From Squalus acanthias (lineage: Eukaryota), in NCBI GenBank assembly GCA_030390025.1, contig CM059432.1, positions 99,202,001 to 99,266,000 on the forward strand: a stretch of DNA of 64,000 nucleotides. Reading direction: 5' to 3'. A program made the translations under genes and the position numbers. The notes under the pieces are model-generated. The model saw nothing but the letters and a program-made list of their open reading frames with translations, was not told the DNA's origin and made no database searches. Shown here piece after piece: positions 928 through 57,712 of this stretch. Numbering within the stretch: the stretch's first letter is position 1; each line of letters begins with the position of its first letter.

Positions 928-929
928 TT

Positions 930-2395
930 GATTGGCCTCATTACGGCCGACGTGTGGGTCCCTCCAGGCAATTGCTTGGAGCGTGTCAGATGCTTGTGTC
1001 TGATGACACGTTGTTTCAGTGAAGATTTAAAGGGGTCATGTCCCCTTTGCAGAAGCATTAGCTTCTTTCTCTCAGAAGTGCTGGCTGCTGCAGGAATGGC
1101 AGCGCAACAAACTAAGGCTGCACCCAGGTTCGATGAGGGCTCCCTCCATGCTCTTGTGGAGGGAGTTAGAGGACGTCAGGAGCTCCTCTTCCCTGGAAAC
1201 GGAAGGAGGAGGCCCCCTCAGCAAACCAAGGCAGCTTGGCTGCAAATTGCTGAGGAGGTGAGTTCGAGGTCTGTGTGCAGACGCACATGGGTTCAGTGTC
1301 AAAAGGTTTAATGATCTATTGAGGAGAGAAACCAGAGGTTCGTAGACGTCCTTGTCATGAGGAATGTCAGTACAGTGACGGGTTAACATGGCCCCACCAA
1401 TGTACAGCAAGGTGCTCTCCAGCAACTTGCTAGCAGTGAAGAGCGGGTGACCCATGAGAGGGACGGTGATGTACGAGCACAAGGAAGTGGGGGCTCCGCT
1501 CCAAGCGCTCACACTCCCTTGCCACTGCCGAGCCCTCGGTCAGAGCCCCATCTGCCTGAGGCAACAGGAATGGCTGTGTCTGCCCCTGCACAGCCGCAGG
1601 AGGAGCAGACTTTGGCGGGGCCCTCGAAGGCTCCCAAAACCAGAGGACGGCCGTCAAAGGTGTCTAAGCAGGAGCAGCAGGGAAGTGAGCAGCCTGCCAC
1701 CACATCTGCTGAAGCCACAGGGGTCTCACAACGTAGAAGCTCGCATAAGAGAAAGATGTCACGTTAGTTATCATAAGGGTTATCACTTGGGTGGTATGAT
1801 ATAATTATTTGAACATTTTCTGTTCATAGCGATTTTTGTAATAAAATTATGTTGAACCAAGGTTTGGCATCGTTGTGATGACAACTTGAGGTGGCACAGT
1901 TTAGGGTAAGTGCGCCTTTAAAATCCAACAATGCTGGTTAGAGTGCATCTACAGTGCCCAACACAGACTTGCAGCCTAAAAACGAAAATGCCCCCCAAAT
2001 GACTCAATCACCAAGCTTAGAGATTTCTAAATGACTAGCTTGAAGACTGCAGCTTTTACACAGCACTTGCAGCTCTGAAGTCTGCAGCTCACTGGTGTTC
2101 AAGCCACACTTACCTGGCATGTTGTCCGAACATCGCGAAACCTGAGCCAGCAGCTGAAATTTTTTTTTAAAACCCTGAAAATTGCTCACAAGTACCTGTT
2201 AATAGGCAGTTAACTGCCTTTAAGCCCTTTCCCACCGCTTGGTGTTGGGTCCATTTGCAAATCGGGGACCCAACACTCGGGAAGGTTGTGTGGAGGCAGG
2301 ATGATGGTGGGTTCGGAACCCGCCGTTAATCATATCGACTTTAAACTCTGACCCGCCTCCAAACCCGCCCTCTGAGCACTGGCAAATTCACGGCC
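930..2395 (+). mobile_element. Non-autonomous Harbinger with internally deleted Myb/SANT gene
   Basis: 1097-1311 encodes APRFDEGSLHALVEGV...KAAWLQIAEEVSSRSVCRRTWVQC (Myb/SANT, MSANTD/NAIF1 type). 1447-1767 matches the C-terminus of the gene at 13597-13920. Right TIR GGCAAATTCACGGCC ends at 2395. Confidence 0.85.
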
Positions 2396-2490
2396 TCTAT
2401 TTCTCTCTCCACAGATGCAGACCTGCTGAGTGTTTCCAGCATTTTCTGTTTTTATTTCAGATTTTCAGCATTCACAGTATTTTGCTTTTG
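2396..2490 (+). mobile_element. Penelope-type 3' repeat fragment
   Basis: TTTCTCTCTCCACAGATGC...TTTCCAGCATTTTCTG...TATTTTGCTTTT, homologous to 50221-50327 and 55886-55980. Confidence 0.7.
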
Positions 2491-21769: not shown

Positions 21770-24635
21770 AAGTAATTAGACCGATTGTGCCCGATAATAA
21801 CCCTAAGGCGGGTTCTGAGCGGTAGGGTGGGTAGGGGTAATAGCAGGCACAAAGCTCAGATGAAGTTTTGACATGTTAGAATGTCCAATTTCTACATGGC
21901 GACCTAATTATGATTTTACTTCCGGAATTCGCATCACCGATGCACTTCAGCAGGAGTGGTGTGCATCCACATGACGCTATGTCAACTCAAGTATATAAAG
22001 GGCCAATTCAAAGATGGAATGTGGAGGAGTTAGGAGTTTGAACAAAGAGAGAGAGAAGTTTCATGATGGATTCAAGACGGGCAAGGGCTGTGCCACGATT
22101 TAGTGAAGCTTCACTTGATGTGCTTCTGGGTACAGTGAGGAGCAAGAAGGAAATAATCTTCCCCAGCAACGGGAGGAAGAAAACAACTGCTGTCACCAAG
22201 AATGCATGGTTGGAGGTGCTGCGGAGGTCAGCAGCAGGAATTTTGTGGCCCGTTCCTGGATATAGTCGAAGAAGCACTTTAATGATCTAACCAGGGCAGA
22301 AAAGGTGAGTACAGTTGCACATTCACCTACAGCCTGTGGTGTACAACACTCCACTCTCACTCTGTCTTCTCGAGCCTACTCACATCACTCCACACACCCA
22401 CTTAACTTTCAACAGCAGCCATTGCTTACTTTCTATGCTCATCCTTACCTCCCCATTTATCCATCCACCACTGCTACTCACCCCAATTATTATGCAATGT
22501 GATTCATCTGCCTGATAGTCACCCTCGCCCAATGCACTGCATCCATTGGGTGAACATATGCCCTTACAGACACTCATAGGTCTGTTCTTGCCCCCATTGC
22601 AGGAGAAGAGAGCGCAAAACATAAGGGAGAGGGAGAGGACTGGAGGTGGGCTGCCACAGATTGTGCAGCTGGCAGATGCATCGGAGGAGGCAATGGAGAT
22701 CAGTGGCAGCTCTGCATCTCTGACCATCGGAGAAGGAGAGACTAGGAATTCACAGATGCCTGCTGACAGAATTAAAATATATATCTGACACACATCTCAT
22801 ACAAGACCAAGTCATGTTAACTTTATTTGAGCAACGAGTGAAATATGATATGCCTGATTATGCTGAGTGGCAACATAGCTACATTGCCAGCGCTAATTCA
22901 TATCCCTTTCTTCTCTCCCATCAGGGCCGTCATGCATAGAGCATCAGTCACAGCAGTCTGCTGACTTACCTGAGGATGATTGCTCAGTGGATCTCATAGT
23001 GGATTGGTACCGCAGGTCATGGCAAGAATGTCTGCCATGGAGAGAGTGACCGCATCTGTGGAACTTTAAGTATGGGTATCTAATGAGTCTATTCAGGCAA
23101 TGACCACAGCCATGCAGACGATGGAAGCCAGCATTTCTGCCACCTTAAATAAGATGACAGATACCTTATCCATGGCCTTATGGTACGTCACTGATCTGCA
23201 CCAAGCTGCTGTCCAGTAGTGTGAGAGGGATGATGTGCTGCTGGCCCAGGGAAGAATGATGGTGAAAGGGGACATGGAAGTGGGAACGCAACTCAAAGTG
23301 CTCCCACGTCTCACCCCTTGGCCCCCACCCCCCCCTCCCCCCTCAATCAGTCAGTGCCCGACATGCTGCCTCCTCTCCCAATAGCCAAGTCTGCCCCTGA
23401 ACATGTGAAGGTGGAGCAGTCTTTGGCGGGGTTCTCACGGGTGCCAAGAACAGAGGTTATAAGTGAAGAGCATCTCAACAGTCAGAGCAGGGATCTGAGC
23501 AGCCTGCCTCTATCTCTGCTGAAGCCACAGCGGTTGCTGTATGTAGGAGCGGTAAGCAGACTAAGAGAAAACAATTGTAATTCACCAAGGGTATGCACAT
23601 GGTTGTTTGAGAAAATGTTATGTTGTTAAGTTTCCTTTTGTTATCACGGCACATAACATTTATTCATTTGCATCACTTTCCCATGCTGCCCATTCTAGCG
23701 TGCTGAGTGGCAACTCGCCTTTTCATTTGCTTGGTGATGAAACTGAAGACATGAATGGTCGGGACCAATTGGGGGATGTGTAATGTGTGGGTGGTTGGTT
23801 GGAGGACTGCTTTGTGTGACTGGTGGTGGTGGGGGGGCGGGGGGGAAGGGGAGAGGGGAGAGGGGTGTGCGGGGGAGAGAGTCCGCAGGATGTGATAGTT
23901 ACTTTGGTCCCGTATGCATGACTAACTGAACCGTTGCGCTATTCCTGGCATCCTGAGCAGCAATGTGAGCACTTGGTCTGGCGCTGGGTTCCCCATCTTC
24001 ATCTTCCGCCTCCTCTTCTTCATTGGTCTCATCATCAGATGATGAGTGATGAGCGCCTTCTTCGTCCTCCACCTCTAATCCTCGCTGCTGTGTAGGAGGC
24101 AACACACCACGATCATTCTGGATACCCTCACTGGCAAGTACCGAAGGGCACCTGCAGACCTATCTAGGTACCAGAAGCGTATCTTCAGCATGCCGATTGC
24201 TTGCTCGATGACACATCTGGTGATCATGTGGCTGTTGTACCACTCTTGGACTTCATTGGTGGGGTTCCTCACAGGTGTCATGAGCCAAGTTTGAAGGGAG
24301 TATCCTTTATCTCCTAAGAGCCATCCCTTCAGTCTGCTTCCAGGTATGAAGAAGTCGGGGATGTTGGACTGCCACAAAATGAAAGCATCATGGCAGCTCC
24401 CAGGGAACCTGCCGTACATCTGCATCAACCTTTTCTTGTAGTTGCACACTAGTTGCACATTGATGGAATGAAATCCCTTGGAGTTGATGAATACACCTGG
24501 TTGATCTGGTTGTCCTCAGACTGAGACATGTGTGCAATTGATGGCAACCTATACCTGTGGGAAGCCAGCCACAGATGCGAATCAGACTACCTGCTTATTC
24601 TGGCTATTTTCGTCGCAGGGAAGTTGACATAAGTC
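21770..24635. mobile_element. Degenerate autonomous-type Harbinger (Myb on +, transposase on -), right end missing
   Basis: Myb exons at 22063-22304, ~22602-22763 (EKRAQNIRERERTGGG) and ~22925-23580; convergent transposase. Confidence 0.88.
23910..24630 (-). pseudogene. Harbinger (HARBI1-like) DDE transposase, catalytic-domain remnant
   Basis: FPGSCHDAFIL, WLLGDKGY, TRCVIEQAIGMLKIRF, VVCC, acidic tail; frameshifted. Confidence 0.92.
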
Positions 24636-25101
24636 TTTCAATCTTTCCAAAGACTTTCGGAATGATTGTTCCCTATTGTGCCACTCCCCTTTAATTGTTC
24701 TCATCAGTTTAAATTTTACTTACTCCAAATTTTCAATTCCCATCACCAGTTTGCTCCCTAGACCATCTAAATCTGTCACTGAAGTTATGATAATGAACTG
24801 AGTTAGTGCATTGTTTCACCCAATTTACCTATCATTTGAGTGTGTCAAAAACCCACCAACAGCTGCTTTCTGGCATCAACTGCTACAGCAAAAGGAAATT
24901 CTAGGCAATAGGATAATTGGTTATTGACTGCATTAAGATAGTGGATTGAAGAATTTATAGACATATGAAAATATGAAAACAAGGGCGAGAAAGAAAGGAT
25001 TGTCCCTCAGATGCTGTAACCTCATGCAGCATCCATCCCAATTGCTAGAAACCACTCAAACATTATCAGTGTTGAATTTGCTGGAATTTCTCCCTATGTG
25101 T

Positions 25102-25567
25102 CAGCTGTGGCTCAGCGGTAGCACTCTCACCTCTGAGTCAGCAGGTTATGAGTTGAAGCACCACTTCAGAGACCTGAGCACAAAATCTACGCTGACATTC
25201 CAACGGAGTACTGAGGGAGTGCTGCACCATCGAAGGTGCCATCTTTCGGACTAGACGGTAAATCGAGGCCCCATCTGCCCTCTCAGGTGGACGCAAAAGA
25301 TGCCATAGCACTATTTTGAAGAAGAATATGGGAGTTCTCTTTGGTGTGCTGGCCAATATTTATCCTTCAATCAATATCACTAAAAAAGACCAGATTATCT
25401 GGTTATTATCATATTGCTGTTTGTGGACCTTAGTGTGTTCAAATTGGCGGCCACATTTCCAACATTACAACAGTGACTACACTTCAAAAGTACTTAATTG
25501 GCTGTAAAGCACTTTGGGATGTCCTGAGGTCATGAAAGGTGTTACATAAATACAAGTCTTTCTTTCT
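25102..25567 (+). mobile_element. tRNA-headed DeuSINE (SacSINE1/AmnSINE1-like), full length
   Basis: A-box TGGCTCAGCGG; central GAGGGAGTGCTGCAC...GGCCAATATTTATCC body; L2-type tail GTAAAGCACTTTGGGA...ATAAATACAAGTCTTTCTTT. Confidence 0.85.
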
Positions 25568-26091
25568 GACTCCAAAAGGCAATTAAATTATCTCCAGCAG
25601 ACTATGCTTGCCCATGAATCACCACTAAAAATATTTAACTAATCATCCCTTATTCCTCCCCACCAGCTATGTCGCAAAGTCCCTAGGAACATTTGATGCG
25701 TTTAAACATTCATACAATTATATCGCCAACACTACTTTCTATTCAAAGATCTTGACAGATTCCATTTTTTCCCCATCAAAACAACCAGAAGAGACGTCAT
25801 TAGAAAGTAGCACAATATCATTGCAATCTCCCCAACCTCCTTCCTCCTTGTTGGAATCATTTATCTTCAAGGGATACTAATAAATACATGTTGGATGATA
25901 CTGAGTTCACTGATCCAGTCTGATCAAAGCCACCATGCCCTTGTTAGAGGTCAGAGTTTTAGCGATATAGGGAGTGAGTTTACAGCTAAGCTTGATCCCA
26001 CTAACCAAAAATGTGTCTACTTCTCAAATCTAGCTGATTTGGTGATGTTCTAGCAATCAGATATCTGAGCCTAACCCTTTGGAAAAAAAAT

Positions 26092-26362
26092 GGGGGAAAA
26101 ATTGGGTTGCTTTGTGCAGGGGTGGGAGGCCTGCAGTACCGCGCGCTACGTGCTGAGACGCGTGGCTCTGTTGCACGTAGCACCGTGATATTCAGTTGTA
26201 GTCCCCCAGGAAGGAAATGGAGTGCTTCCAGTAGCGCCCCACCTCCTGCACGGGGCGCTATCACTGAATTTACGGCGCAGGGGCACTAACCTTTTCAGGG
26301 CGCTAAAAGTAGTGTCCCGGTGAAGTTAGCGCCCCCAAGGGGTCGCCACCGAATTTCTCCCC
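26092..26362. mobile_element. Harbinger MITE, deleted relative of 61207-61878
   Basis: GGGGGAAAATT...GAATTTCTCCCC; 26120-26320 aligns with 61620-61830. Confidence 0.85.
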
Positions 26363-26371
26363 TCTAAGATC

Positions 26372-28290
26372 TAGGGTAGTGCAGTTGATGTAGTCTACAT
26401 GGACTTCAGTGAGGCTTTTGACAAAGTCCCACATGGGAGACTGGTCAAGAAGTTAAGAGACCATGGGATCCAGGGCAATTTGGCACATTGATCCAAAATT
26501 AGCTTAGTGGCAGGAGGCAGAGGGTGATAGTCGAAGGTTGTTTTTGCGACTGGAAGCCTGTGTCCAGCGTGTACCGCAGGGATCGGTGCTGGGTCCTTTG
26601 CTGTTTGTAGTGTACATTTATGATTTAGAAATGAATGTAGGAGGTATGATCAGTAAGGTCGCAGATGACACGAAAATTGGTGGAGTGGTAAATAGCGAGG
26701 AGGGAAGCCTCAGGCTACAGGACGATATAGATGGGTTGTCCAGATCCAAGGTCGTCCCATCCTCTGTCGTCGAATTACAGTATGCAGACTTGCGTCTGCG
26801 CTCACTCGGAGGTCGAACTCCAAACCATCGTCAACACCTTCACCGAAGCGTACGAGAGCATGGGCCTTACACTAAACATCCGTAAGACAAAGTTCCTCTA
26901 CCAACCTGCCCCCGCCACACAGTACTGCCCCCCGATTATCAAAATCCACGACAAGGCCTTGGACAACGTGGACCACTTTCCATACCTCGGGAGCCTACTG
27001 TCAACAAGGGCAGACGTCGACGACGAAGTCCAACACCGCCTTCAGTGTGCCAGTGCAGCCTTCGGTCGCCTGAGGAAGAGAGTGTTTGAAGACCAGGACC
27101 TCAAACCTGGCACTAAGCTCATGGTCTACAGAGCATGCAGTGATACCCGCCCTGCTGTATGCCTCAGAGACATGGACCATGTACAGCAGGCACCTCAAAG
27201 CACTGGAGAGGTACCACCAACGCTGCCTCCGCAAGATCCTGCAAATCCATTGGCAGGATAGGAGCACCAACGTCAGTGTTCTTGCTCAGGCCAACATCCC
27301 CGGCATCGAAGCTTTGACTAAGCTCGGTCAGCTCCGATGGATGGGTCACATTGTCCGCATGCCCGATACGAGACTCCCAAAACAAGCGCTCTACTCGGAG
27401 CTCCGGCACGGCAAGAGAGCCCCAGGTGGGCAGAGGAAACGCTTCAAGGACACCCTCAAAGCCTCCTTGAAAAAGTGTAACATCCCCACCGACACCTGGG
27501 AATCCCTGGCCCAAGACCGCACAAAGTGGAGGAGAAGCATCCAGGAAGGCGCCGAACACCTCGAGTCTCTTCGCCGGGAGCAAGCGGAAGCCAAGCGCAG
27601 GCAGCGCAAGGAGCGCACGTCAACCCAAGCAACCCACCCACCTGCCCCTTCAACCACCGTCTGCCCCACCTGTGACAGAAACTGTAGGTCCCGCATTGGA
27701 CTCATCAGTCACCTGCGAACTCATTTTTAATGTGGAAGTAAGTCACCCTCGTTTCCGAGGGACTGCCTAAGAGAGAAGAGAGAGACACTATAGGAAGGAT
27801 GTGATTGCATTGGAGAGGGTGCAGAGAGTTTCACCAGGATGTTACCTGGCGTGGAGCTATGAAGAGAGACTGGACAGGCTGGGGTTGTTTTCCTTAGAGC
27901 AGAGAAGGCTGAGGGGGGACCTGATTGAGGTGTACAAAATTATGAGGGGCATAGATAGGGTAGATAGAAAGGAACTTTTCCCCTTAGTAGAGGGGTCAAT
28001 AACCAGGGGGCATAGTTTCAAGGTAAGGGGCAGGAGGTTTAGAGGGGATTTGAGGAAAAACTTTTTCACCCAGAGGGTGGTTGGAATCTGGAACTCACTG
28101 CCTGAAAGGGTGGTAGAGGCAGGAACCCTCACAACATTCAAGAAGCATTTAGATGAGCACTTGAAACGCCATAGCATACAAGGCTACGGACCAAGTGCTG
28201 GAAAATGGGATTAGAATAGACAGGGCTTGATGGCCGGCATGGACACGAGGGGCTGAAGGGCCTCTTTCTGTGCTGTATAACTCTATGACA
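26372..28290 (+). mobile_element. CR1 LINE 3' part, split by RTE insertion (CR1 at 26372-26735 and 27786-28290)
   Basis: [28 protein letters not shown]-terminal RRLRGDLIEVYKI...GYGPSAGKWD*; tail CTCTATGACACTAT. Confidence 0.93.
26736..27785 (+). mobile_element. RTE-clade (BovB-like) LINE, 5'-truncated
   Basis: ELQYAD, GLTLNIRKTK, FPYLGS, LLYASETW, QLRWMGHIVRM, C-terminal CPTC..C.SRIGLISHLRTH zinc finger; GA-rich tail. Confidence 0.93.
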
Positions 28291-28477
28291 CTATTTCCCC
28301 CATAATGACTCTATTACAACAGAGAAATTCCATCAGTTTAAACCATGGTTATTTATCTCTCTCAGGAGTTTAAAAGTGAAAGCTCACAACATTACAAAAA
28401 GTGCTAACTTTTAAATTATTTCTAAAAGTTTTTACATGATTTTCAGTATAGATGACGTATTGAATGAAAAAATCAAT

Positions 28478-28642
28478 GGCATAGATCTTGACATTGTAAA
28501 ATGGGTGATAATGAGTTGGCAGCCCGTTTTACACCTCTCCTGATTTTTGAAGTCAATGGAAATAGAATTCAGGAGAGATTTAAAAGAGGCTGCCAATTCG
28601 CTATTACCCATTTTAAACTATCGCACGGTTAAAATCTACACC
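28478..28642. mobile_element. Palindromic ~160-bp Harbinger MITE
   Basis: GGCATAGATCTTGAC...TTAAAATCTACACC; homologous to 47741-47892. Confidence 0.8.
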
Positions 28643-28646
28643 AAAT

Positions 28647-30385
28647 GGCCGCAATTTTACTTACCTCGGCAGATCCGTGGTGGGCAGTGTTGGTGGCAGG
28701 TTGCAGCCCTGCTGTTGGCGCCATCCCGCTCTGTGAAGTGACTTTCCGTTGATTGGGCTTGTTAAGCCCGCCCAGCGCATTTCCCGGGCCAATTAGAGGA
28801 AGCCGGTCTGGTGACGTCATTTGATGACACGTCATCAGCCGGTTTCCTTAAAGGGACCATGGCCAAATTTATCTTCACATTGTGCTGTCAGTGTTCTACA
28901 GCATTGAGGTGCTGCAAACACTGACAATCACTGCACAGATGCATAGGGGTGCACCCAGGTTCTTCTGTGACTTCCTCCATATGCTTATGGAGGGAGTCAC
29001 ATCATGCAGGGAGGTTCTCTTCCCTTCCCATGGGCAGATGAGACCTCCCCAGGAGACATAAACAGCCTGGTTGCACATTGCAGAGGAGGGCAGAGGCAAG
29101 GATGTCGTCAGGAGGACCAGGCTGCAAGGCCGCAAACTTTTCAATGATCTCAGTAGATCACAAAACGTTACTGCAAAGCCATACTCAACCTCATTCTGCT
29201 GTGCTACTCATCACATCCCCATCATTCTGCCTTCCCTACCCTACTCCTGCACATCCTTACTCACACTACCTTACCTTGCACCTTCACCCATCACTCTCTC
29301 TCTATCTATATTATCACATCCCCATCTCACTAGCCACCCCTCATACTCCCCTCATCCTAGTGCAATCATACCAACTAACAACACACAAGGGTAGGCACTT
29401 GAGTGTTTTATCCAATGTTCATGTAAATTTCTGTTAATGTGCTGTCAATGGACAGATTTGTGTTCACCTTTGGAAGTGGCTTAGTGAGTTGCAGTGAATG
29501 GTGAGACATAACAGTAGCCCCGCATTGGTGATGAGTGTGAAAGGAATGGCTTGGACATTGTAGGGGTGCTTTATGGTGTTGGGTGGGGTGGTGCCAACCT
29601 GAAGCATTAAGTGGCAGCCAAGGTGTACAGCATCAAGTGAAGTAAATCTGGCCATGGTGAGGCCATCCCTGGCCTCCTGGGCAGTAATGTGCTCGGGTGC
29701 TGATGCCCTGTGTCCTGTGCAGCATCAGGTGATTGCGGAGAAGTTTGGTGTAGTTGTTGGTGCTGCTGGTGTGCCTGGTGCTGCTGGTGTTGGGGCTGAT
29801 CGTGAGGACCAAGGTGAAACAGTATAAATGGTACCGATGCTGATGGAATAGATGGCAGGTGAAGTTGCGATGACAGAAGCAAGCTGTCAATGGTGAGAGA
29901 GGTTGTTCCAATGAGATGACATTGGATAGAGAGTTTGCTCCAAACACTTGCAACCTGCATAAAGCTCAATCTGTCTTCCAAATGCAGTAAGCAACAGCTT
30001 CCGAGCTTGGAAAGTGACAGCTGTGAGGTGGGAGCTTTTATAGCACATTTCAAGCTGTCAAGTAATCAGCTCATTCAATGGCCATTCAACTCTCGCCTCA
30101 GCTTAACAGACATGATCCCCAAGCAACGTGGACCCCATGGGTGAGCAGTTAAAGAGAAAAGGTAAGGTTAAATGTATTATTAATGATCTGTCAACAAGGC
30201 AATAATTAGCTTAATTGGGTCCCCCGCCGCTGCGTGTCGGGTTTGCTCAGCGCTGACAGATCCGACGTTGGGAAAGGCGCGTGGCGACGGCTTGACAGTG
30301 GGGTCCCGACCCGCTGTCCAAAAAACCCTCTTCTCACCCGACCCGCCACCGATCCCGCCCGCTGAACCCTCGGAAAATTCCTGCC
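28647..30385 (+). mobile_element. 1.7-kb non-autonomous Harbinger (copy 1)
   Basis: TIR GGCCGCAATTTT...GAAAATTCCTGCC; TSD AAT/AAT; Myb exon-1 remnant ~28940-29165; Gln/His-rich transposase N-terminal remnant on - ~29690-29840. Confidence 0.9.
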
Positions 30386-31919
30386 AATGTTTCTAAAAAT
30401 TCTGAAGGAAGCAACAAGTTTCAGAAGCACTGATTTTTCATTTAATACTTTATATATTTACAAATCAATTAAGGTTATTGTAGAAAAGTGGTAGAAATTT
30501 TCATGATCATTCCAATAATTTTCTACAAAGCTTTATTTGATTTATGTATATAAATCAGTGCTTCTGAAACATACTGCTTCCGTAAAAGAATTTGAAGCAT
30601 TAACTTTTTCATTTAATACTTTCTGATCATGATACCATAATGAAATGCTTCGAAAAAAGTGGTTTCATAATTAATATTGATACTCCAAACTTTACTTGTT
30701 AATGTCGATCATCGTTCATCAATAAATAGGATTGTTATGAAACAAAAATTGTTAAGAAACTCTATATATAAGCAAGAAAAGAAATGAATGAAAGGGGGCA
30801 TTAGAAAAAGCTGTGATCAGTTAAACATAGGGGAAAGTTTACTGGTATGTGAGATCGGTCAAAAGAACTTTCTTAAACCAGCAGAGACCTACTAAATTAA
30901 ACCAGATGCATAACCTGCAGAACCTTGCATGATTGTGGAAATGAACACTTTGAATGGATAACTTCCTTTAAAACACAAAGCCAATCGATGACTTGATCCA
31001 TCAAATCATAGCTTCACAATCTGGGGTTTCCAGACTCTATGGAGCCAGCCAGCGGAGTCTCCAGTTTCAAAAGATGTCTGTCTATCTGACATCAGATTCT
31101 GCATTTGTTTTGTATTTGTTGACTTCCCTTTGGTCTTGTTTATACCAGATTAGTCCGATTGGAAATTTGGACAGCCCTGCCACGATCACCTTGACATTAA
31201 TTTCAATTTTAAAGGTCAGAAGATCCAACGCAGAAAATTAGCCCATAGGCACAGCTCCAGAAAATAACAACATTAAACAAATGAAAGAGTCACCAACTGA
31301 CAATGACTTTTTTCCAACTGCTGACATTACAAAGTTGGGACGATGTGGTGAAATTCATCTTAAAACCTTGGTAACTCAAACCTCAATCAAAAGCTCTGTC
31401 AAAGCCTCATACCTCCTTTGATCTTGTCACTGTGAAGTCTCAAAGCAGGAACTTCAATGAGAAAAGATGTAAGAAACAGACCCACATCCTGCAGAACTCC
31501 CAACGGTATTTGTAATAAGTTGGTTGACATTGCATGTTACTTGTATATAAATATGCAGTGAGATTAATTAGTTGTAGGAGGGATTTGGATGGCTGCGCTT
31601 ATAGTCAATAGAACAACAACAACTTGCATTTATATAGCACCTTTAATGTAGTAAAACGTCCCAAGGCGCTTCACAGGAGCGTTATCAAACAAACTTTGGC
31701 ACCGAGCCACAAAAGGTGATATTAGGGCAAAGAGGTAAGTTTTAAGGAGCGTCTTAAAGGAGGAAAGAGAGGTAGAAAGACGGAGAGGTTTACGGAGGGA
31801 ATCCCAGGGCTTAGGGACTTGGCAGCTGAAGACACAGCCGCCAATGGTAGAGCGATTAAAATCGCGGATGCTCATGAGTTCAGGATTTGAGGAGCGCAGA
31901 GATCTCGGGGGATTGTAGG

Positions 31920-34171
31920 CACTGTTCCCGCTAATTTTTCTTTCAACTGCGCGGCCCCTTTAAGGGGCTGTGCGGCCCATTCAAATTATCGCACATGTGC
32001 AGTTTTTTCCATTATAAAGCCGTTGAGCAGCCTGCGCAGGACCTCCAGATCATAGAATCATAGAAAGTTACAGCACGGAAGGAGGTCATTTCAGCCCCTC
32101 GTGTCCGCGCCGGCCAACAAAGAGCTATCCAGCCTAATCCCACTTCCCAGCTCTTGGTCCGTAGCCCTGCAGGTTACAGCATCCCAAGTGCACATCCAAG
32201 GACTTTTTAAATGTGGTTAGGGTTCCTGCCTCTACCACCCTTTCAGGCAGTGAGTTCCAGACCCCCACAACCCTCTGGGTGAAGACATTTCCCCTCAAAT
32301 CCCCTCTAAACCTTCCCCCAATTACTTTAAATCTGTGCCCCCTGTTTTTGATCCCTCTGCTATGGGAAATAAGTATTTTCTATCCACTTTATCTATGCCG
32401 CTCATAATTTTATACACCTCAATAAGGTCTCACCTTAGCCTGCTCTGTTCCAAAGAAAACAGACCCAGCCTATCCAATCTTTCCTCATAGCTAAGATTCT
32501 CTACGCAAGGCAACATCCTTGTAAATCTCGTCTGTACCCTCTCTAGTGCAATCACATCTTTCCTGTAATGTGGTGACCAGAACTGCACGCAGTACTCTAG
32601 CTGAGGCCTAACTAGTGTTTTATACAGTTGAAGCATAACCCCCCTGCTCTTGTATTCTATGCCACGGCTAATAAAGGCAAGCATTCCGTATGCCTTCTTA
32701 GCCATCTTATCTACCTGGCCTGCTACCTTCAGGGATCTGTGGACATGCACTCCAAGGTCCCTTTGTTCCTCTACACTACTCAGTGTCCTACCATTTAATG
32801 TGTATTCCCTTTCCTTGTTAGCCCTCCCCAAATGCATTACCTCACACTTCTCCGGATTGAATTCCATTTGCCACTGTTCTGCCCACCTGACCAATTTATT
32901 GATATCTTCCTGCAGTCTACAGCTTCCTTCTTCAGTATCAACCACACAATCGATTTTAGTATCATCTGCAAACTTCTTAATCATATATTCAAGTCTAGAT
33001 CATTGATATATACCACAAAAAGCAAGGGACCTAGTACTGAGCCCTGCAGAACCCCACTGGAACCAGTCTTCCAGTCACAAAAACACCCATCAACCATTAC
33101 CCTCTGCTTCCTGTCTCCGAGCCAGTTTTGAATCCAACTTGACACTTTGCCCTGGATCCCATGGGCTTTTAACTTCGTGACCAGTCTGCCATGTGGAACC
33201 TTATCAAAAGCCTTGCTAAAGTCCATATACACTACATCAAATGCACTACCCTCATCTACCCTCCTTGTTACCTCCTCAAAAAATTCAATCAAGTTTGTCA
33301 GACATGACCTTCCCTTAACAAATCCGTGCTGACTATCCTTGATTAATCCGTGTCTTTCTAAATGAAGATTTATCCTGTCCTTCAGAATTCTTTCCAATAA
33401 TTTTCCCACCACCGAGGTTAGGCTGACTGGCCTGTAATTACTCGGTCTATCCTTTTCTCCCTTTTTAAACAAGGGTACCACATTAGCAGTCCTCCAGTCC
33501 TCCGGCACCACACCTGAAGCCAGAGAGGATTGAAAAATGATGGTCAGGGCCTCTGCTATTTCCTCTTTTGCTTCGCTTAACAGCCTGGGATACATTTCAT
33601 CCGAGCTTGGGGATTTATCCACTTTTAAAGCTGCTAAATCCCTTAATACTTCCTCTCTCACTATGTTTATTTCATCTAATATTTCACACTCCTCCCCCCC
33701 GATAGCAATGTCTGCTTCGCCCCTCTCCTTTGTGAAAACAGATGCAAAGTATTCATTAAAAACCCTACTGACATCTTCCACCTCCACACACAGATTACCC
33801 TCATGATCTCTAATAGGCCCTACCCTTTCTTTAGTTATCCTCTTACTCTTAATATATTTATAAAACATCTTTGGGTTTTCCTTGATTTTACTTGTCAAGA
33901 ATTTTTCATGCTCTCTCTTTGCTTTCCTAATATCGTTTTTAATTGCATCCCTGCACTTTCTGTACTCCTCTAAAGATTCTGAAGTATTTTGCCCTCCCTT
34001 TTTTTCTTTATCCTACCCTGCATGTCTCTAGACATCCAGGGGGCTCTAGATTTGTTAGTCCCACCTTTTTTCTTTAAGGGCACATGTTTGGTCTGAACCC
34101 TCTGGATCTCGTCCTTGAATGCCTCCCACTGCTCTGACATGATTTACCTGCACAGCTTAATGGGAACATTG
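31920..34171. mobile_element. Short hAT-type MITE (31920-32048 and ~34149-34171) containing a CR1
   Basis: TIR CACTGTTCCCGCTAA...TTAATGGGAACATTG; 8-bp TSD ATTGTAGG/GTTGTAGG. Confidence 0.75.
32049..34148 (-). mobile_element. CR1 LINE, 5'-truncated
   Basis: ORFs 33898-32981 and 32984-32430 with RT motifs ([19 protein letters not shown]); tail TCTATGATTCTATGAT on -. Confidence 0.96.
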
Positions 34172-34753
34172 GTTGTAGGACTGGATGAGATCACAGAGAT
34201 AGGGAGAGGCGAGGCCATGGAGGGATTTGAAAACAAGGATGAGGATTTAAAATTGAGGTGTTGCTTAACCAGGAGCCAATGTAGGTCAGCGAGCACAGGG
34301 GTGATGAGTGAACAGGTCTTGGTGAGAGTTAGGACACGGGCAGCAGAGTTTTGGATGACCTCAAGTTTACGTAGGGTGGAATCTGGGGGGCCAGCCAGGT
34401 GTGCATTGGAATAGTCAAGTCTAGGGGTAACAAAGGCATGGATGAGTGTTTCAGCATCTGATAAACTGATGCGGGGCGGAGGCGGGCGGTATTACAGAGG
34501 TGGGAAATAGTCCGTCTTAGTGATGGCGTGGATATGTGGTCGGATGCTCATCTCTACAACCCGCAACTGTAGAAAACCTAATAATTTGATGTACTTCTTT
34601 TGTATGCTGTTGCTCTTGAATGCTTTATTCTCTCTAACTTAACTAGATAAAATAATTAACATAACTATCAATAATCGTGTGAATAAAGACTTTAATTAAG
34701 AGAGCGAGAGAAGCAGTCAGAGACAAAGGTAGGCCTGACTTTTAAGACTCTCT

Positions 34754-35646
34754 GGGGGAAAAAATCAGTTGGTTGCGCCTCCCGTTAGCGTCTTAAGAGG
34801 GCGCTAATGGGGCGCAAAGCATCTAGCGCCCATATGCGGCGGGGTTTGTGCCGCTCGCGAAATTAACTAGACATTTTGCGGCGGCGCTAAACACTACCGC
34901 CATGATCTCCTGCGCCGGCAGATCATGACGTCAGTCGAGTGTGCAACGGCCCGGTATCGCCCCGGAGCAGATATTGAGTGGCGCCCCCTGCCTTACCGCC
35001 TGACGCTAGCAATGACAGGTTGAGGGGAGCGTTCTGCAGTCATGAAGGGAAAGGGGGAGCGCTATTTAAAGGTGACCGCTTCCTGCCTTTTATTGTTGGT
35101 GCCATTTTTGAACTACGCATTCTGAGAGAGAGAGGGAGAGACTTCTGGAGAGATTCAACGTTGTGCGAAGGAGTTTTGGGTACTGAGCAGCACTTTGCAG
35201 GTTCATTTTGATTTGCCATTCCTTGTATCGATTTAGCAGAGACTGTGGGGGCTGCACTCTGAGCTCTTTGCCTGGTACTCTCCATTGTTCTTTCCAGCAC
35301 ATTTGATGTGCAAGTCTCTCCAGGCCGAAATTCAAGGCTGCAATGAACAGGATGTGGATGGAAAGCAAGAATAACCATCCCCTTTAAGAACTGGCCCGTG
35401 CCATTGTGTGTGTGTTCCATTGCTGACTGACATTACATGAGCTTCGCCAGCGCTCTGAGTTAGCGCCTCACTCCTCAGCCTTTGCGCCTTAAGACAGGTG
35501 TGCAGCGCCTGATTTAGCGCTCCAATCACCTCCCGGGGCGTTAAAAGTCAAGTTTCCAGTCAGTGGCGATAATTAGCACCAGGCGCTAATTTTTGCGCCC
35601 GGACGATATTTGCGCCCCAAATGGGGCGCAACTGAATTTTTCCCCC
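34754..35646. mobile_element. Harbinger non-autonomous element
   Basis: TIR GGGGGAAAAAATCAGTTG...CAACTGAATTTTTCCCCC; flanks TCT/TCC; many TAGCGC-type subterminal motifs. Confidence 0.9.
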
Positions 35647-36153
35647 TCCGGGGGAAGAATTCAGTTGGTTAGCGCCTCCCGTTAGTACCTGGCGGGAGTG
35701 CTAACGGGGCGCTGATGCAGTAGCGCTGAGCCGAGGTGAATCCAGCATTGCATGGCAAATCCGGCCCCTCCGTTGCGCCGCCAATACCAGTTACCACCGA
35801 GGACCTCACCACTAGGCAGATTGTGATGTCAGTGAGCGTGCAACGCTCACTGGGTGCCCAATTTGCCAAATTCATTTTCGCCCCCTGCCTTAGCGCCTCG
35901 CCCCAACAGCGACAGAGAAAGGAGGCGTCAAGCAGGTGGATGCCGGCTCCAGGGGCGGTATTTAAAGGCATCCTCAGTACTGAGTCGCAGCTGTCAGGTT
36001 AGTGGTGTTTTACTGCTTCCTTGTCAGTATGACATTGTGAAACCAATTCATTCAGTCATTTGAAGGTTATTTAGTATCAGGGGTGTTGTGGCTGCTAACA
36101 ATTAGTTACATTTATTCTCACAACATATCAAATTGCTACACTTGGTTACATTA

Positions 36154-37315
36154 ATGGGAGCTGTACTGGCAGTCGACCTCGCCCTCCAGGATCTATGGCG
36201 GAGGGAGCAGAGGCATCGAGAAAGACTGGAACATGTGGCCAGAGGGAGGAGAAGGGCCAATGAGAGCTCTGAACAGGAGGCCTTACTCCCCGATGATATT
36301 CCGAGAGCACTTCTCCTACCTCCAATTAAATGAGGAGCAGTGTATTAGAAGGCTTTGCTTCAGCAAGGAGGTGATCACAGTACTCTGCCACCTCCTGCAA
36401 CCAGACCTCAATCCTCAGATCAGGGTGACCACAGCTCTTTCAGTGGCAGTCAAGGTCACCGTCGCCCTCAACTTCTTCGTCAGCTAATGCTTCCAGTCTG
36501 CAACAGGAGACATAGCTAACATCTCACAGTTCACCGCATCTGGGGTGTCACAGAGGCTCTCTCCAGTAGGAGAAGGGACTATATTGGCTTCCCCATGCAC
36601 CAGAGAGAAGCAGGACGAGCTGTGCCTGTTGATTTGCCAGGATAGTGGGCTTCCCCATGGTGCACGGCATCATTGACTGCTCCCACGTGACTTTGCGGGC
36701 ACCGCAGAACAATCCTGAGATCTTCCATAACCGCAAAGGCTACCACTCACTTAATGTGCAGTTGGTGTGCAACCACAGACAGCGAATCCTCAATGTGAAT
36801 GTTCACTATCCTGGCAGCAGCTACGATGCCTTCATCCTGTGCCAGACCGGTGTGCCAGCACTCTTCCAGCCACCAGGTCAAGCTCGCGGCTGGCTGGTCG
36901 GAGACAAGGGCTATCTGCTCTCCACCTGGCTCATGACCCCCCTCCGCAACCCCAACACTCCTGCCCAGCACTCATATAATGAGAGCCACGCTGCCACCAG
37001 GAACATTATCGAGCAGACCATTGGGGTGCTCAAGCAACGGTTCGGCTCCCTTGACCACTCGGGAGGAGCCCTCGAGTACTCAACTGAGCGGGTGTCCCAT
37101 TTCGTCGTGGTCTGCTGCATGTTCCATAACTTGGCCATCATGAGGGCCCAGCCCTTGCCACCAGGGATTGCGGGACCACCTCAGGAGGAGGAAGAGGGAG
37201 AGGAGGAGGATGAGGAGGAGGACGAGGAGGAACAGAAGCGAGGGAGGAGACAGTCACTCAATCGCCTTCCGCAAGGGCTGTCCATGACCACCTCATCAGA
37301 TTGCGGTTCCAATAA
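36154..37315 (+). pseudogene. Harbinger (HARBI1-like) DDE transposase
   Basis: QCIRRLCFSK, KVTVALNFF, GIIDCSH, NRKGYHSLNVQ, PGSSYDAFIL, GDKGY, IEQTIGVLKQRF, CCMFHN; frameshifts and stops in the 5' half. Confidence 0.95.
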
Positions 37316-37499
37316 ATTAAACCCCAGATCCCCATTGCTAGCCACATTCCTATCATTCCATCCCTGTCGCAGGCCATATCACAGTGCAAAGCTGAAATGA
37401 GAGACACCACAAAATAATCCAAACTGAATTAATAAATTTATCAATAATCAATTAACACATATTTGCAACAACAATATTACTTATTCACCCTTGTGCAAT

Positions 37500-48445: not shown

Positions 48446-50220
48446 CTGGGAATAGATGCATAACAACATAGTACACTTTAAAGGATCTAGCAATCCAGCA
48501 AATTAAGACTGCCTGACAGCACCATGCATCAGATAGATGGCCCAAGATTACATAACACAATATATTGTCTATGGACCTGTTCAATGTTTGCTGTTTGGCC
48601 ATACTATGCCCAGACACAAATGTGTAGTTCATTCATTTAATTATCATGCATATACATACAATCATAGGGCACTCCTTTGTGATGCAAAATACAATTGAAA
48701 GCCTTGTCACACTCACATCATTATTGTAGAACAACGTACCTGTGGGATGTAGTTATTTATGAAACCTAGGTTGGTGTGTAGGTTGTGCATGCCCGTCAAT
48801 GCAAATATGCTTTCAGAACTATTATTTTGCTTGAGACAAGATGGCACTATCCTAACATGTTGAAGGCCTCCATTGTGATACATAGATGATGAAGGTGTGT
48901 CTCTCAGATATGTGATCCCAGAGGAGGCCCATGGGGAGCCAGGCATCAAGGAGCTGATTTATGTAGGGCCAGGAGGAGCCATAATACTACTTCTGGCCCC
49001 ATAAAAATAATTTTAAAATGTTTTTGCAAACTTTTTTTGAGCAGCTTGCAGGACTGCTGGTTCGGCTACTGTATGCCAGGTATCAATGGATGGAGCCTTT
49101 GTGGTGCACATTGCACCGCCCATTGTAACCTTAAAATTGCAATGGGGTCCTATTGATATCACAGGACCCCGATTTGCAAGGGCTAATGGGGCTTCTGCTT
49201 TTTCCAGCAGGCGGTGATCCAAATGTTGATGGGAGTAGGACTGTAAGTGCGGTGCTCATTTTCCCATTGTGCTAGCGTTCTGTTCCCGCTTGAAATGAGG
49301 TAATGAAAATTGGCCCTCATGCTTCTGATTTCCCTGCACCTTTTCACTCCCTGCTGTTGTTTTTACCCCTCCTGTTCTCTCTCCTTCCCTATTCTTTAAC
49401 TGCCCTTTTCTGACCAATCAACTCTACAATCAGAGAGAAAAAAGAATAAATCTCTTCCATAATTCTTCTGCAACACATCTGCTGCAGAAAAAAACTTGTG
49501 CCTTTGAGTGCTTCTTTCCTTCCTCAGGCATTTGAACTAGAAGTAATAGAAGTGGGAATTTTAGCATGTAAAATCTATTTCACATTACTAAGCCATCTAT
49601 CAAGCAATCACTGATATGCTCTACCATAATATACTCGTGTATTGGCATCGCTGTGACTGAGAGGTGACCAAACTAGAAAATATATAATGAAATTTTAATG
49701 AAACTATTTGTTGTAATAAGTACATAGAGATAAGAGAAATTAAACTTGGTTTCTTGTTACCTTTTAACTGCAAATCTCAAACTGAAATGAATTGCAGATT
49801 CATGCTGTAGTGACAGTACTTTCTTTCCAAACCTAGATTATAATAAAAATGCTGCTTTAAACAGGAGGCTCCACAAAATCATATATGAGCTTTATGTATA
49901 AAGGATGATTAGAGATTTCAGATGTCTGCCTTTGGTGGAGGTTCAATATGTTCAGTGAAGCCTGGCGCTGATTCAGATTATCGGTGATGCTTGAACCTAA
50001 TCACTCTGGGGGTGAAATTAGTTTTTGGCAGTCACGCAAAATGGGTGCTAGCAAATCAACGGCTCGTATTACAACCTTTCAAAAGATAATCGGGCGGGAT
50101 GTAAAATGGACTGCTGATTCGTTATCATCCATTTTGAGTGAGGTCAGCTGAGCAGGACAGAGAAGAGGACTTCAGGAATCCAAAAGAAAGCTGCTTGCCT
50201 CACACAAGCAGTTACCAGGT

Positions 50221-50327
50221 TAACTCTGTTTCTTTCTCCAGAGATGCTTCCTGACCTGCTGAGTATTTCCAGCATTTTCTGTTTTTATTTCAGATTTCCA
50301 GCATCCACAGTGTTTTGCTTTTGTTGT
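50221..50327 (+). mobile_element. Short Penelope-type insertion with 14-bp TSD
   Basis: TSD AGCAGTTACCAGGT at 50207-50220 and 50328-50341; insert homologous to 55882-55985. Confidence 0.85.
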
Positions 50328-51127
50328 AGCAGTTACCAGGTATTGGAAAGCCTACCAACAAGTTTCAGCACTATGGCTGAAAGTGTGGAGGAGTCTGCTT
50401 CTTACTTGTGTGGTCTTGTCAGCACTGCAGTCTACCTTGGAGAGTGTGGCCACCTCCAAGGACATTGCAGCCGGTCACCAGCCAGTGTCACCAGCCTTTG
50501 CAGCTTTAGAAGACTCTGGGCTCCACCTTGGAGAGACAGGCGTCCACCTTGGACAGATTGATGGACCAAATAAAGAGGCTTTCAAGGGATCACTCATCTT
50601 CTACAGTCCCACAGATCAGTGGAAGTGATGAGCCCCAGCACCACAGGAGTGGCAGTGGCATGATGGGAATGATACATGCTGCCCTCTCTCCAGATGTCAG
50701 CGTGTCCGCTTCTTCGACATCCCCTCAACTAATACCAGCTATGATATCAGCAAGTCAGCTGGGCTGGCCTGCCCCAGCAGCAGTCAAGGTACAGCAGTCT
50801 GCAATCGGGCCCTCACAGGCTTGAGCACCCAGCAGTCACCAGTGACGAGCATCTCAAGGGTCCCAACTTGAGGAACAGCAGCCTTCCATCAACTTTGCTG
50901 AGGCCACTAGGGGAGCATCTTTTTGGAGTAGCAGAGTTCATAAACTTTTTACAAAAAGCACTATTGGTTTGGTGAGAAATGAATGAAAGGCAATTATTAT
51001 GTTTGCCATTAAGGTAATTACCGTTATCAGGATGAAGGGAGTGGTGAAGAATGTAACAAGGTTTGCTAATGCAGAGGGGCTCTGTGTAAGTTTTGAGGGA
51101 AGGAGAATGAGCAGGTCACTGGAATCA

Positions 51128-55200: not shown

Positions 55201-55621
55201 GCAACTGGGCTCGTCAGTTGGAGTGAATGTTAAGACATTACTGAACCTCGAGCAATAGACATAAGGGCCAAGAGTTTCCACTTTGGGCACAATCGGCGAT
55301 CTGGGAACAAATTGTGGTCAAAATTGCACTAGTTTTAAGAAGTGTTATTTTTCGCTTAAGCTTCCGCTCAAATTCATTTGCATAGCGCCAAACTTAAAAT
55401 TTGCCATGAACCAGCACAATCGGGCAGCGTTTTAGAATGTAATAAAAAAAATTGCTCTAACATATTCCATGAGTGGTAACCTGGTGCAGTTATATTGATA
55501 CAGCTGAAAATGGGTTTATCACAAAAAATAAGCACTTTAAAAGTGTGTCTAGTCCACCACCTGTGAGTAACCCAATTGAAAATAACTGAAGGCGACGTTA
55601 AAAAACAATATAGAACCATTT

Positions 55622-55985
55622 GCCCCCCCCACCTTTTTTATCCTCCTAGAAGCTGGCAGCTGTCCTTCATTCTGCCAGTGGATTTCACACTTCTTTCAGC
55701 CTTAATCTGTCACATTTACACCACCTCTAGCCTTGCATATCTCTTAATGTCTCTTAATGTCTCTTCATCTCCCCCTTTGTTCTTTTATCCCCTCCCCCTT
55801 TTCCCAGCTTTACTCTGGCCTTAAATCTATTTGATTTCCGGCTCTTCACAGTTCTGATGAAAGGTCATCGACCTGAAACGTTAACTCTCTTTCTCTCTCC
55901 ACGGATGCTGCCTGGCCTGCTGAGTTTTTCCAGCGTTTTCTGTTGTTATTTCAGATTTCCAGCATCCGCAGTATTTTGCTATCAT
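55622..55985 (+). mobile_element. Penelope-type / retrozyme-like 364-bp insertion with 15-bp TSD
   Basis: TSD AATATAGAACCATTT at 55607-55621 and 55986-56000; contains a hammerhead motif. Confidence 0.82.
55850..55886 (+). ncRNA. Minimal type I hammerhead ribozyme motif
   Basis: AGUU-CUGAUGA-A-AGGUC(AUC)GACCU-GAAA-CGUU^AACU: both core boxes, 5-bp stem II, 4-bp stem I, palindromic ACGU stem III, GUU triplet. Confidence 0.8.
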
Positions 55986-57712
55986 AATATAGAACCATTT
56001 ACTAGTTTCATTGGTGGACAGTAGTCATTTCCTTAATACATTTTTTTTTAATTTAAAAGCTTTTAAAACATGCCTATTAGTGTCCTTTCACTCAAAAGAA
56101 CTAGCTTAATTTTAAGAGCCTCCTCAAAGGCCTGCAAACGGGTGCAATTAGCAGAACCTCGCCATGGTGATTAATTCGATCTGGGGTGTGTGGCCAGTTT
56201 TGTGGGTGGGGCTAGCTTCCAGCGTGATGTATTTTAAACCAGCGTAAAAGATTACGGAAACTCGATTTGCGCTGGACGTAATTTGCGCTTGAAATTCCTC
56301 AATCTTTTGCGCTGGTTTTGCAGATTTTGAGTGAATTGCGCTACCAGCGCAACCTAGCGGAAACTCCAGGCCAAGGACTTCAGGGTCCCAACAATGAGAA
56401 GAAAGGTGCTGGCCTCACCCAAGCAGTTGTACGAGGTACTGGAGGGCCTGCCAATGAGTTTCAACACATGCGGGTGATGTCTCTTGTAGCAGCCAGGTAG
56501 GAGCTTGAGGTTAAAAAGCTCAGGGTGGTGGTGACTTTCACAGCCAATGACAAAGCATGACTCCTTAATCCAACAGGCATCCAGTCCCTCTGCAGGATGC
56601 TGCACAGATCTGCAACTGCCTGCCTGGTGAAGCACAGCCTCCAGATGCATTGCTCCTCTGAGATGTCCAGGAAAGTAACTCTTGGCCTATAGACCCTGTG
56701 GGCCGGGTAAGGGCGTCTATGAGCAGCCTCCTCACCTCCTGTGCTGTAACAGGCTCAGCTACTGCTTGTCCTGGTTGCTGAGGCTGGTGCTGTTGCAGCT
56801 GCTGTTCTATCTCAAACTGTTCATCCATTCAGACTCAAGAAGAAGAATTGGCACCCATGTAAAGCTGAAAGTGTTTAGTCAGGGTGTGCAAAGCAAACAA
56901 ATCAAAAAGAAACAATCTTCAAGCCCTGAAATGCCTCAGAAATGCAGTAATCAGAAACACAGAAAGATCCAATTCATCCAAATGAGTGCAGGTGCATGTC
57001 CCTTTAAATTTTGCGACAGTCATGCCAGTTAGTTGCTGAGGCCAATCCCACGAGGTGTTACCAGCGGATTGGCTGCTGGGCAGGAATTCCATTCCGCCCA
57101 GTTAAAATAGTGTTTGGGTCCCAGTGACGTCATGGGACTCTGATGTAAATATAAGCATCAGGTTTCGGGTGAGTGCATTTCCCAGCAGAGCAAGTTGGTC
57201 CGTATAAATTGGGATCGCTGAGCTCACAGCGGGAATGGAGCGGTAGCGGATTCCCCAAATTTTAACCCGTTCCCGTCGGAACTGCACTTTGTTTCTAGGA
57301 TCAATTGAGAGCTGATTATATCAAAATGCAATAGAGTTAAAGTAAGTTTGCAAATAAAAAGCAGAAAGAATGGCAGACAAAGAAAGGCAAAAGTCCTAAT
57401 TATTCTGAGTACCATATAAAATAAGACTGAGATGTTCCAAGGCTGCTAGTTTGCAGGCTGTAGACAAATTAACAGGTAAAGAAGCAAGATTGATAATGGT
57501 TTGCATATTTCTCTTTCAAATTACTTTCTGAAACATTTAGTTCAATGTGATTTGTCACATATAATCCTGCACAGTTGTGAGAGGGAAAATTAATTATTTG
57601 AGATCAATAAATACAATCTTATACTGTATAATTCACTTTAATAGCACTTTTACGAAAAGCATTGCACATCATGCGAAGAAATTCCATTGACCTGTACTGA
57701 AGAGTTCTCAGT

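What the first reader, a model, noticed from the sequence alone, without database searches (positions are those of the whole stretch)
55622..55985. Hammerhead ribozyme inside a TSD-flanked non-coding Penelope-type retro-insert
Seen: a 364-bp insert bounded by a perfect 15-bp duplication carries AGUU CUGAUGA A AGGUC-AUC-GACCU GAAA CGUU AACU. Established: Penelope-like elements and animal retrozymes carry minimal type I hammerheads whose short palindromic stem III forms by dimerisation. Inference: this is a ribozyme-bearing retroelement copy that self-cleaves after 55882 (GUU), probably as a dimer via ACGU.
Basis: partly seen in the sequence, partly recalled or inferred. Interest (0 to 1): 0.7.

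Follow-up and report, generated by a model that had tools for sequence, protein, structure and literature searches.

The report
Truncated Penelope-type retroelement end with hammerhead
The 364-base insert and its minimal self-cutting RNA motif are real, but they look like an ordinary cut-short copy of the end of a very abundant Penelope-type jumping gene in a shark-like genome, a pairing described since 2014, and this lone copy probably does not cut itself.

Summary
Observation confirmed. The 15-bp target-site duplication is exact, and paralogues of the host repeat lack the insert. The motif is the window's only match to the published minimal-hammerhead descriptor; 300 shuffles gave 1 match in all. 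Rfam gave no hammerhead hit. The insert belongs to a very high-copy family (35,784 contigs laid in one run) that ends at about 55980 and, in one contig, runs on at least 400 bases upstream, so this copy is 5'-truncated. Relatives occur in two named sharks. Hammerhead, about 98-nt hairpin tail and open frame fit the end of a Penelope-like element, but I could not link it to an RT/GIY-YIG gene. Self-cleavage is not shown and is unlikely for this solo copy: no partner in 64 kb, stem I pairing under 1%, A-U at the base of stem II. The scan noted the same kind of element before, in this genome and others. One lead remains: many relatives seem to start just upstream of the hammerhead, at a splice-acceptor-like CAG.

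The parts
55607..55621 (+). left target-site duplication copy; its last TTT probably doubles as microhomology with the element
   Evidence: X15 record 1 aligns from 55618; microhomology is inference
55622..55985 (+). whole insert: 5'-truncated 3' end of a high-copy retroelement
   Evidence: depth rise and fall, loose ends and empty-site joints
55622..55849 (+). pyrimidine-rich part (74% C+T), read as 3' UTR / pseudo-LTR of one subfamily
   Evidence: X15 record 1 covers 55618-55847 with 4 other letters
55849..55851 (+). CAG after a pyrimidine tract, like a 3' splice site, at the 5' edge of stem I
   Evidence: sequence; second subfamily has the same pattern (table 7); function inferred by analogy with D. 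virilis
55850..55886 (+). minimal type I hammerhead motif: 4-bp stem I, CUGAUGA+A, 5-bp stem II (A-U at 10.1-11.1), GAAA-CG-UU, predicted cut after 55882
55857..55982 (+). 42-codon open frame from the ATG inside the core (P0001); possibly the start of the parent ORF, unproven
   Evidence: no RT-bearing protein found with it
55903..55979 (+). tail: 8-bp closing stem 55903-10/55960-67 with two inner hairpins, then a small terminal hairpin 55968-79
   Evidence: z -2.1, 8 of 200 shuffles as good; family 3' end at 55980
55981..55985 (+). 5 bases (ATCAT) unlike the T-rich continuation of other copies; untemplated or decayed
55986..56000 (+). right target-site duplication copy
55266..56372 (.). host: another repeat (about 730 bp without the insert) with imperfect terminal inverted repeats (12 of 15), Harbinger-like by context
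   Evidence: family assignment is inference
50221..50327 (+). copy 2: tail only, 14-bp duplication 50207-20/50328-41, begins 1 nt before the predicted cut; paralogous empty site near 56415-56440
2395..2486 (+). copy 3: tail only, no duplication found, 5' end abuts a DNA-transposon-like terminus

Best explanation
The insert is a dead-on-arrival, 5'-truncated copy of the 3' end (pseudo-LTR, minimal hammerhead, hairpin tail) of a very abundant Penelope-like element of sharks. Shown: it was inserted into another repeat with a 15-bp staggered cut; the family ends at about 55980; at least one relative is longer at the 5' side. Inferred from published Penelope biochemistry: the element's RT/GIY-YIG protein bound its RNA, nicked an AT-rich target, started reverse transcription near the tail hairpin about 98 nt downstream of the hammerhead cut site, copied through the uncleaved hammerhead and stopped after about 360 nt, joining at a TTT microhomology. 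The template was uncleaved at this motif, since the copy spans the cut site. In the parent element the motif probably cuts only in tandem arrays or with protein help; in this solo copy it is most likely inert.
For: Descriptor match unique in the window, 1 in 300 shuffles. GAAA-C-G-U-U occurs in 14 of 56 motifs of the 2014 alignment (my count). Empty-site joints such as 55606->55991 in runs X5 and X9. Summed contig depth in X5 is 0.9-2.0 million over 55640-55843 and 3.4-6.5 million over 55844-55979, against 2,000-192,000 in the flanks; 644 contigs leave the match at 55980; X15 record 1 (640 nt) matches 55618-55847 and goes on upstream; one X5 contig joins 55976 back to 55849, a tandem. Geometry resembles Anolis PAc, where RT starts 111-118 nt into the ORF in a stem loop and the cut is 26 nt after the start codon. 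Penelope copies with one terminal repeat, 8-10-bp duplications and microhomology junctions are described. Relatives in Scyliorhinus torazame and Heterodontus francisci gene models.
Against: No link to an RT or GIY-YIG gene was obtained: no genome is held, DNA pattern scans gave only chance bacterial matches or nothing, and three protein searches with the 42-residue frame found no retroelement protein. Rfam has no hammerhead hit. The 15-bp and 14-bp duplications are longer than the 8-10 bp in the rotifer passages read. Covariation across copies could not be counted: 215 rows of differences are hidden. The upstream continuation rests on one contig of run X15.
Confidence: 0.8

Rival explanations
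1. It is one monomer of a non-autonomous family (animal non-LTR retrozyme or hammerhead SINE) that borrows the Penelope enzyme and spreads by its own short or circular RNA.
For: The hammerhead-plus-tail module is much deeper than the upstream part (about 3-5 times in X5, about 20 times or more in X18 and X9), and 427 X5 contigs leave the match at 55850-55852 with unrelated flanks. One tandem joint of 128 nt. The 2026 preprint gives a mean of 363 bp for retrozyme families in one chondrichthyan.
Against: Solo copy, not tandem. It does not start or end at the cut site, as a cleaved monomer would. A relative continues upstream of 55622. No joint from the 3' end back to 55622 among the rows shown (134 hidden). 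The 363-bp figure is an average over families whose sequences I could not see.
Confidence: 0.12
2. This very copy is an active ribozyme that cuts transcripts of the locus after 55882, alone or as an intermolecular dimer.
For: All core positions are intact. The copy is close to some relatives (X15 record 5: 0 other letters in 55828-55878). The Anolis motif cleaves with protein help.
Against: No second motif in 64 kb. Stem I pairs have probability under 0.01 in the folded insert; the active-like double hammerhead scores -9.7 kcal/mol against -14.6 for two misfolded monomers and -15.9 for a 6-bp AACGUU duplex that ties up A14 and U17 (tertiary contacts not modelled). A-U at 10.1-11.1 occurs in 3 of 56 published motifs (my count). 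The single S. mansoni motif tested showed no cleavage; 8 of 9 Xenopus dimers did not cut. Transcription of the locus is not shown: run X9 is only guessed to be RNA.
Confidence: 0.05
3. The insert is the 3' tail of an ordinary LINE or SINE (CR1, L2, RTE type) and the hammerhead likeness is chance.
For: The window is full of RT remnants; a 3' hairpin and a long duplication fit LINE-type insertion; Rfam finds nothing.
Against: 1 descriptor match in 300 shuffled windows; the insert matches none of the LINE remnants in the window; a second subfamily with different upstream sequence converges exactly at the motif's edge.
Confidence: 0.03

Closest known systems
Minimal hammerheads (min-HHR) in pseudo-LTRs of metazoan Penelope-like elements (Cervera and De la Pena 2014, PMC4209133; main text parts 1-2 of 4 and the supplement PDF read)
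   Same: CUGANGA + one extra base, stem II, GAAA-N-N-U-H with palindromic centre, short stem I, U-rich 5' flank, mostly solo copies from truncated elements.
   Different: A-U instead of the usual G-C at 10.1-11.1 (3 of 56 published motifs share it); 3-nt loop 2; no cartilaginous fish among the 56 motifs of their Fig. S3.
PAc, Poseidon-type element of Anolis carolinensis (Frangieh et al. 2024, PMC11167929; parts 1-2 of 4 read)
   Same: Hammerhead followed about 90-100 nt later by a stem loop that marks the end of genomic copies; AT-rich target; open frame starting in the hammerhead region; insertion from uncleaved RNA.
   Different: Here the ATG lies inside the core (A6-U7-G8), not at the start of stem II; the tail is U/C-rich, not AC-rich; no ORF linked and no biochemistry.
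Animal non-LTR retrozymes (PMC7229834, passages; bioRxiv 10.64898/2026.07.22.740005, parts 1-3 of 5, supplements not seen)
   Same: Type I hammerhead, size in the 150-450 bp range, duplication longer than 4 bp, Penelope origin proposed.
   Different: Defined as tandem repeats with a hammerhead in each unit; this copy is solo, has a minimal motif and is truncated from a longer relative.
Penelope of Drosophila virilis (PMC2377424 passages; PMC4209133)
   Same: Its intron ends at the 5' end of helix I; here a pyrimidine tract plus CAG stands at the same place in two subfamilies.
   Different: Splicing is not shown here; no donor or promoter identified.

Membership tests
Minimal type I hammerhead (min-HHR) | Core CUGANGA ... 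GAAANNUH with stems I and II (published descriptor) | tested here: met
   descriptor text
Minimal type I hammerhead (min-HHR) | Palindromic 15.2-16.2 allowing a dimeric stem III | tested here: met
   ACGU at 55878-81
Minimal type I hammerhead (min-HHR) | G10.1-C11.1 pair (highly conserved, not universal) | tested here: not met
   A-U here; 3 of 56 published motifs also have A-U
Minimal type I hammerhead (min-HHR) | Core conservation and stem covariation across copies | tested here: inconclusive
   no core position among the 40 difference rows shown, 215 hidden; one X15 contig varies at the free position 7
Minimal type I hammerhead (min-HHR) | Self-cleavage | not testable with these tools
   needs in vitro assay
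Rfam Hammerhead_1 (canonical type I) | Covariance-model score at the gathering threshold | tested here: not met
   no hit at E up to 10 or 5
Endonuclease-positive Penelope-like element | RT plus GIY-YIG ORF in the parent element | tested here: inconclusive
   no genome; searches found no such protein, weak negatives; earlier scan notes claim intact elements in this genome, unchecked
Endonuclease-positive Penelope-like element | Hammerhead in the terminal repeat followed by a short tail | tested here: met
Endonuclease-positive Penelope-like element | Dispersed 5'-truncated copies with target-site duplication | tested here: met
   copies 1 and 2 with empty sites
Endonuclease-positive Penelope-like element | Partial-tandem or inverted arrangement in the family | tested here: inconclusive
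   one tandem joint 55976->55849 in X5; none at this locus
Non-LTR retrozyme | Two or more tandem units, each with a hammerhead | tested here: not met
   single motif in the window
Non-LTR retrozyme | Circular RNA joined at the cut site | not testable with these tools
   only contigs were available

The most novel reading that the evidence does not exclude
In this shark family the ends of genomic copies record how the RNA is processed in vivo. Most short copies would derive from an RNA that begins at a splice-acceptor-like CAG just upstream of the hammerhead, giving a hammerhead-headed unit of about 130 nt, and a minority (such as copy 2, which starts 1 nt before the cut) would be retrocopies of the ribozyme's 3' cleavage product. 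That would be a genomic footprint of Penelope hammerhead activity, which RNA-seq did not show for the Anolis element.
Probability: 0.15. Interest if true: 0.55.

Novelty: new member of a known kind. Interest (0 to 1): 0.18.

Why it matters
The locus itself is ordinary: one of very many truncated copies. What the minimal hammerhead does for Penelope-like elements in vivo is still open (low activity in vitro, not needed for insertion in the Anolis system). A family this abundant makes that question testable by counting where copies begin relative to the cut site and to the upstream CAG.

Tried and rejected
Whole genome: none held, so no copy alignment or covariation count. Rfam scans negative for hammerheads. 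DNA pattern scans: viral 0 and 0, metagenome 0 and 0, prokaryote genomes 3 and 2 matches that do not extend beyond 20-21 bases and are chance. Protein searches with the 42-residue frame: none at E 0.01 among 9 candidates; 9 hits, of which 8 are short ORFs of 63-107 residues and 1 (P0004) a repetitive weak match that I left out of alignment A2; the profile search found 1 of 8000 scored candidates, an N-terminal extension in a horn shark RNF14 gene model, which gave no test of splicing. No Pfam family for P0001. I first read both hammerhead-less window copies as starting at the cut site; copy 3 was dropped because its 5' end abuts a DNA-transposon-like terminus, and copy 2 is equally explained by a 2-base GT microhomology, so 1 ambiguous case of 2 remains. 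Three tail pair probes were mis-indexed and are not used. Earlier-finding look-ups by sequence and by nearby place returned nothing. Literature searches found no title on shark hammerhead ribozymes (listings only); no passage on GUU or A-U effects was found, so the view that these weaken cleavage is recalled. Supplements of PMC11167929 gave no hits for four terms. Summed contig depth was not used as a copy number, nor run X9 as proof of transcription.

Full report
Observation. The 15-bp repeat AATATAGAACCATTT stands at 55607-55621 and 55986-56000 with 364 bases between. Only 5 of 20,000 random nearby window pairs reach 15 exact bases. The motif is as described: stem I AGTT/AACT, CTGATGA, an extra A, stem II AGGTC-ATC-GACCT, GAAA, CGTT, with the predicted cut after 55882. 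I implemented the minimal-hammerhead descriptor printed in the supplement of PMC4209133. It matches once in the window, here, and once in 300 shuffled windows, never with stems as long.

The insert is a real insertion. Contigs of four public runs were laid on 55300-56300 at 80% likeness. In run X5, 35,784 contigs were laid; summed depth is 0.9-2.0 million over 55640-55843 and 3.4-6.5 million over 55844-55979, against 2,000-192,000 in the flanks, which are themselves a repeat. Depth is no copy number, but the edges agree with the duplication. Joints such as 55606->55991 (X5 and X9, one contig each; net skip about 381 against 379 expected) show paralogues of the host repeat without the insert. 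The host spans about 55266-56372 with imperfect inverted ends (12 of 15) in a region of Harbinger-type remnants.

Anatomy of the family. The 3' end is sharp: 644 X5 contigs leave the match at 55980. The last 98 nt after the cut site fold into a closed multi-hairpin (z -2.1). At the 5' side, X15 record 1 (640 nt) matches 55618-55847 with 4 other letters and goes on upstream, so this copy is truncated, probably at a TTT microhomology; this rests on one contig. A second subfamily has different upstream sequence and joins at 55849 (430 X5 contigs). One X5 contig joins 55976 back to 55849, a head-to-tail tandem. Two more copies in the window hold only the tail (87 and 82 of 98 identical). Translated relatives occur in Scyliorhinus torazame and Heterodontus francisci gene models, so the genome is shark-like.

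What it is. The motif fits the consensus for Penelope pseudo-LTR hammerheads: GAAA-C-G-U-U occurs in 14 of 56 published motifs, A-U at the base of stem II in 3 of 56, and no cartilaginous fish is among them (my counts). In the Anolis element PAc, reverse transcription starts inside the RNA at a stem loop 111-118 nt into the ORF, the hammerhead cut is 26 nt after the start codon, the target is AT-rich, and uncleaved RNA is the main substrate. Here the family ends 98 nt after the cut, in a hairpin, and an open frame starts in the core. Truncated copies with one terminal repeat, duplications and microhomology junctions are usual for Penelope-like elements. I could not show the coding link myself: no genome is held, and DNA and protein searches gave no parent. 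Earlier scan notes report intact Penelope-like elements with such hammerheads in this genome; they are unchecked and a look-up by sequence did not tie them to this family.

Does it cut? Probably not here. The copy spans the cut site, so its template was uncleaved. There is no partner motif in 64 kb. In the folded insert stem II forms (0.76-0.83) but stem I does not (under 0.01); an active-like double hammerhead scores -9.7 kcal/mol against -14.6 for two monomers in their best fold and -15.9 for a 6-bp AACGUU duplex that would trap A14 and U17 (tertiary contacts and proteins are not modelled). In print, the one single minimal motif tested in 2014 showed no cleavage and its dimers little, the PAc motif needs protein, and 8 of 9 Xenopus dimers did not cut. 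Transcription of the locus is not shown.

The remaining lead. In X5, 143, 165 and 119 contigs leave the match at 55850, 55851 and 55852 with long flanks of low agreement (0.34-0.35), as unrelated genomic flanks would; some may be diverged subfamilies instead. In 4 of the 6 translated relatives that cover the core, the residues just upstream also look unrelated to the family (my reading; biased by ORF calling). Both subfamilies carry a pyrimidine tract and CAG at this edge, and the D. virilis Penelope intron ends at the 5' end of helix I. A spliced or otherwise processed RNA may therefore be the main template. No peak at the cut site appears among the loose-end rows shown (1542 hidden). Copy 2 begins one base before the cut and has a 14-bp duplication and a paralogous empty site, but a GT microhomology explains it equally well; copy 3 abuts a transposon end and does not count.

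Sources seen. PMC4209133: main text parts 1-2 of 4 and the whole supplement PDF. PMC11167929: parts 1-2 of 4 and a supplement search. bioRxiv 10.64898/2026.07.22.740005: parts 1-3 of 5; its supplements, which may list this shark family, were not seen. Passages only: PMC6155905, PMC7229834, bioRxiv 10.1101/2021.04.23.441226, PMC2377424, PMC3846280, PMC1636495, PMC2837043. Searches showed no title on hammerheads in shark elements; repeat databases were not searchable.

Verdict. Observation confirmed; interpretation partly supported. A new member of a known kind, interest 0.18.

Noticed in passing
window 50207-50341: Tail-only copy with a 14-bp duplication inside a Harbinger-type transposase remnant; starts 1 nt before the predicted cut; the paralogue at about 56370-56470 is its empty site.
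   Followed up: yes
window 817-2486: Myb/SANT-bearing DNA-transposon remnant (PF13873 at 919-1308) with similar inverted ends at 817 and 2394, directly abutting the tail-only copy 3.
   Followed up: partly
window 55849-55852: Many relatives leave the match here with unrelated flanks; a second subfamily ends in a branch-point-like CTAAC, a T run and CAG.
   Followed up: partly
run X15 laid on window 55618-55975: A 1.9-Gb run of another organism label holds only 12 matching contigs, several 98-100% alike: trace shark DNA or horizontal transfer, not resolved.
   Followed up: no
P0011 residues 1-36: A horn shark RNF14 gene model has this tail's reading frame as an N-terminal extension; probably a repeat in the 5' UTR read as coding.
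   Followed up: partly
window 55738-55770: Short local duplication (TCTCTTAATG twice) in the upstream part of the insert.
   Followed up: no
window 56236-56318: 24-nt inverted repeat (88%) inside the host repeat.
   Followed up: no
window 4342-45000 and 24075-37400: Many broken RT/APE LINE remnants and DDE_Tnp_4 (Harbinger-type) remnants; 7 of the 10 window ORFs scanned besides P0001 had Pfam hits, no host gene noticed.
   Followed up: partly
window 12228-12436: 21-bp-period tandem repeat seen in the self-comparison.
   Followed up: no
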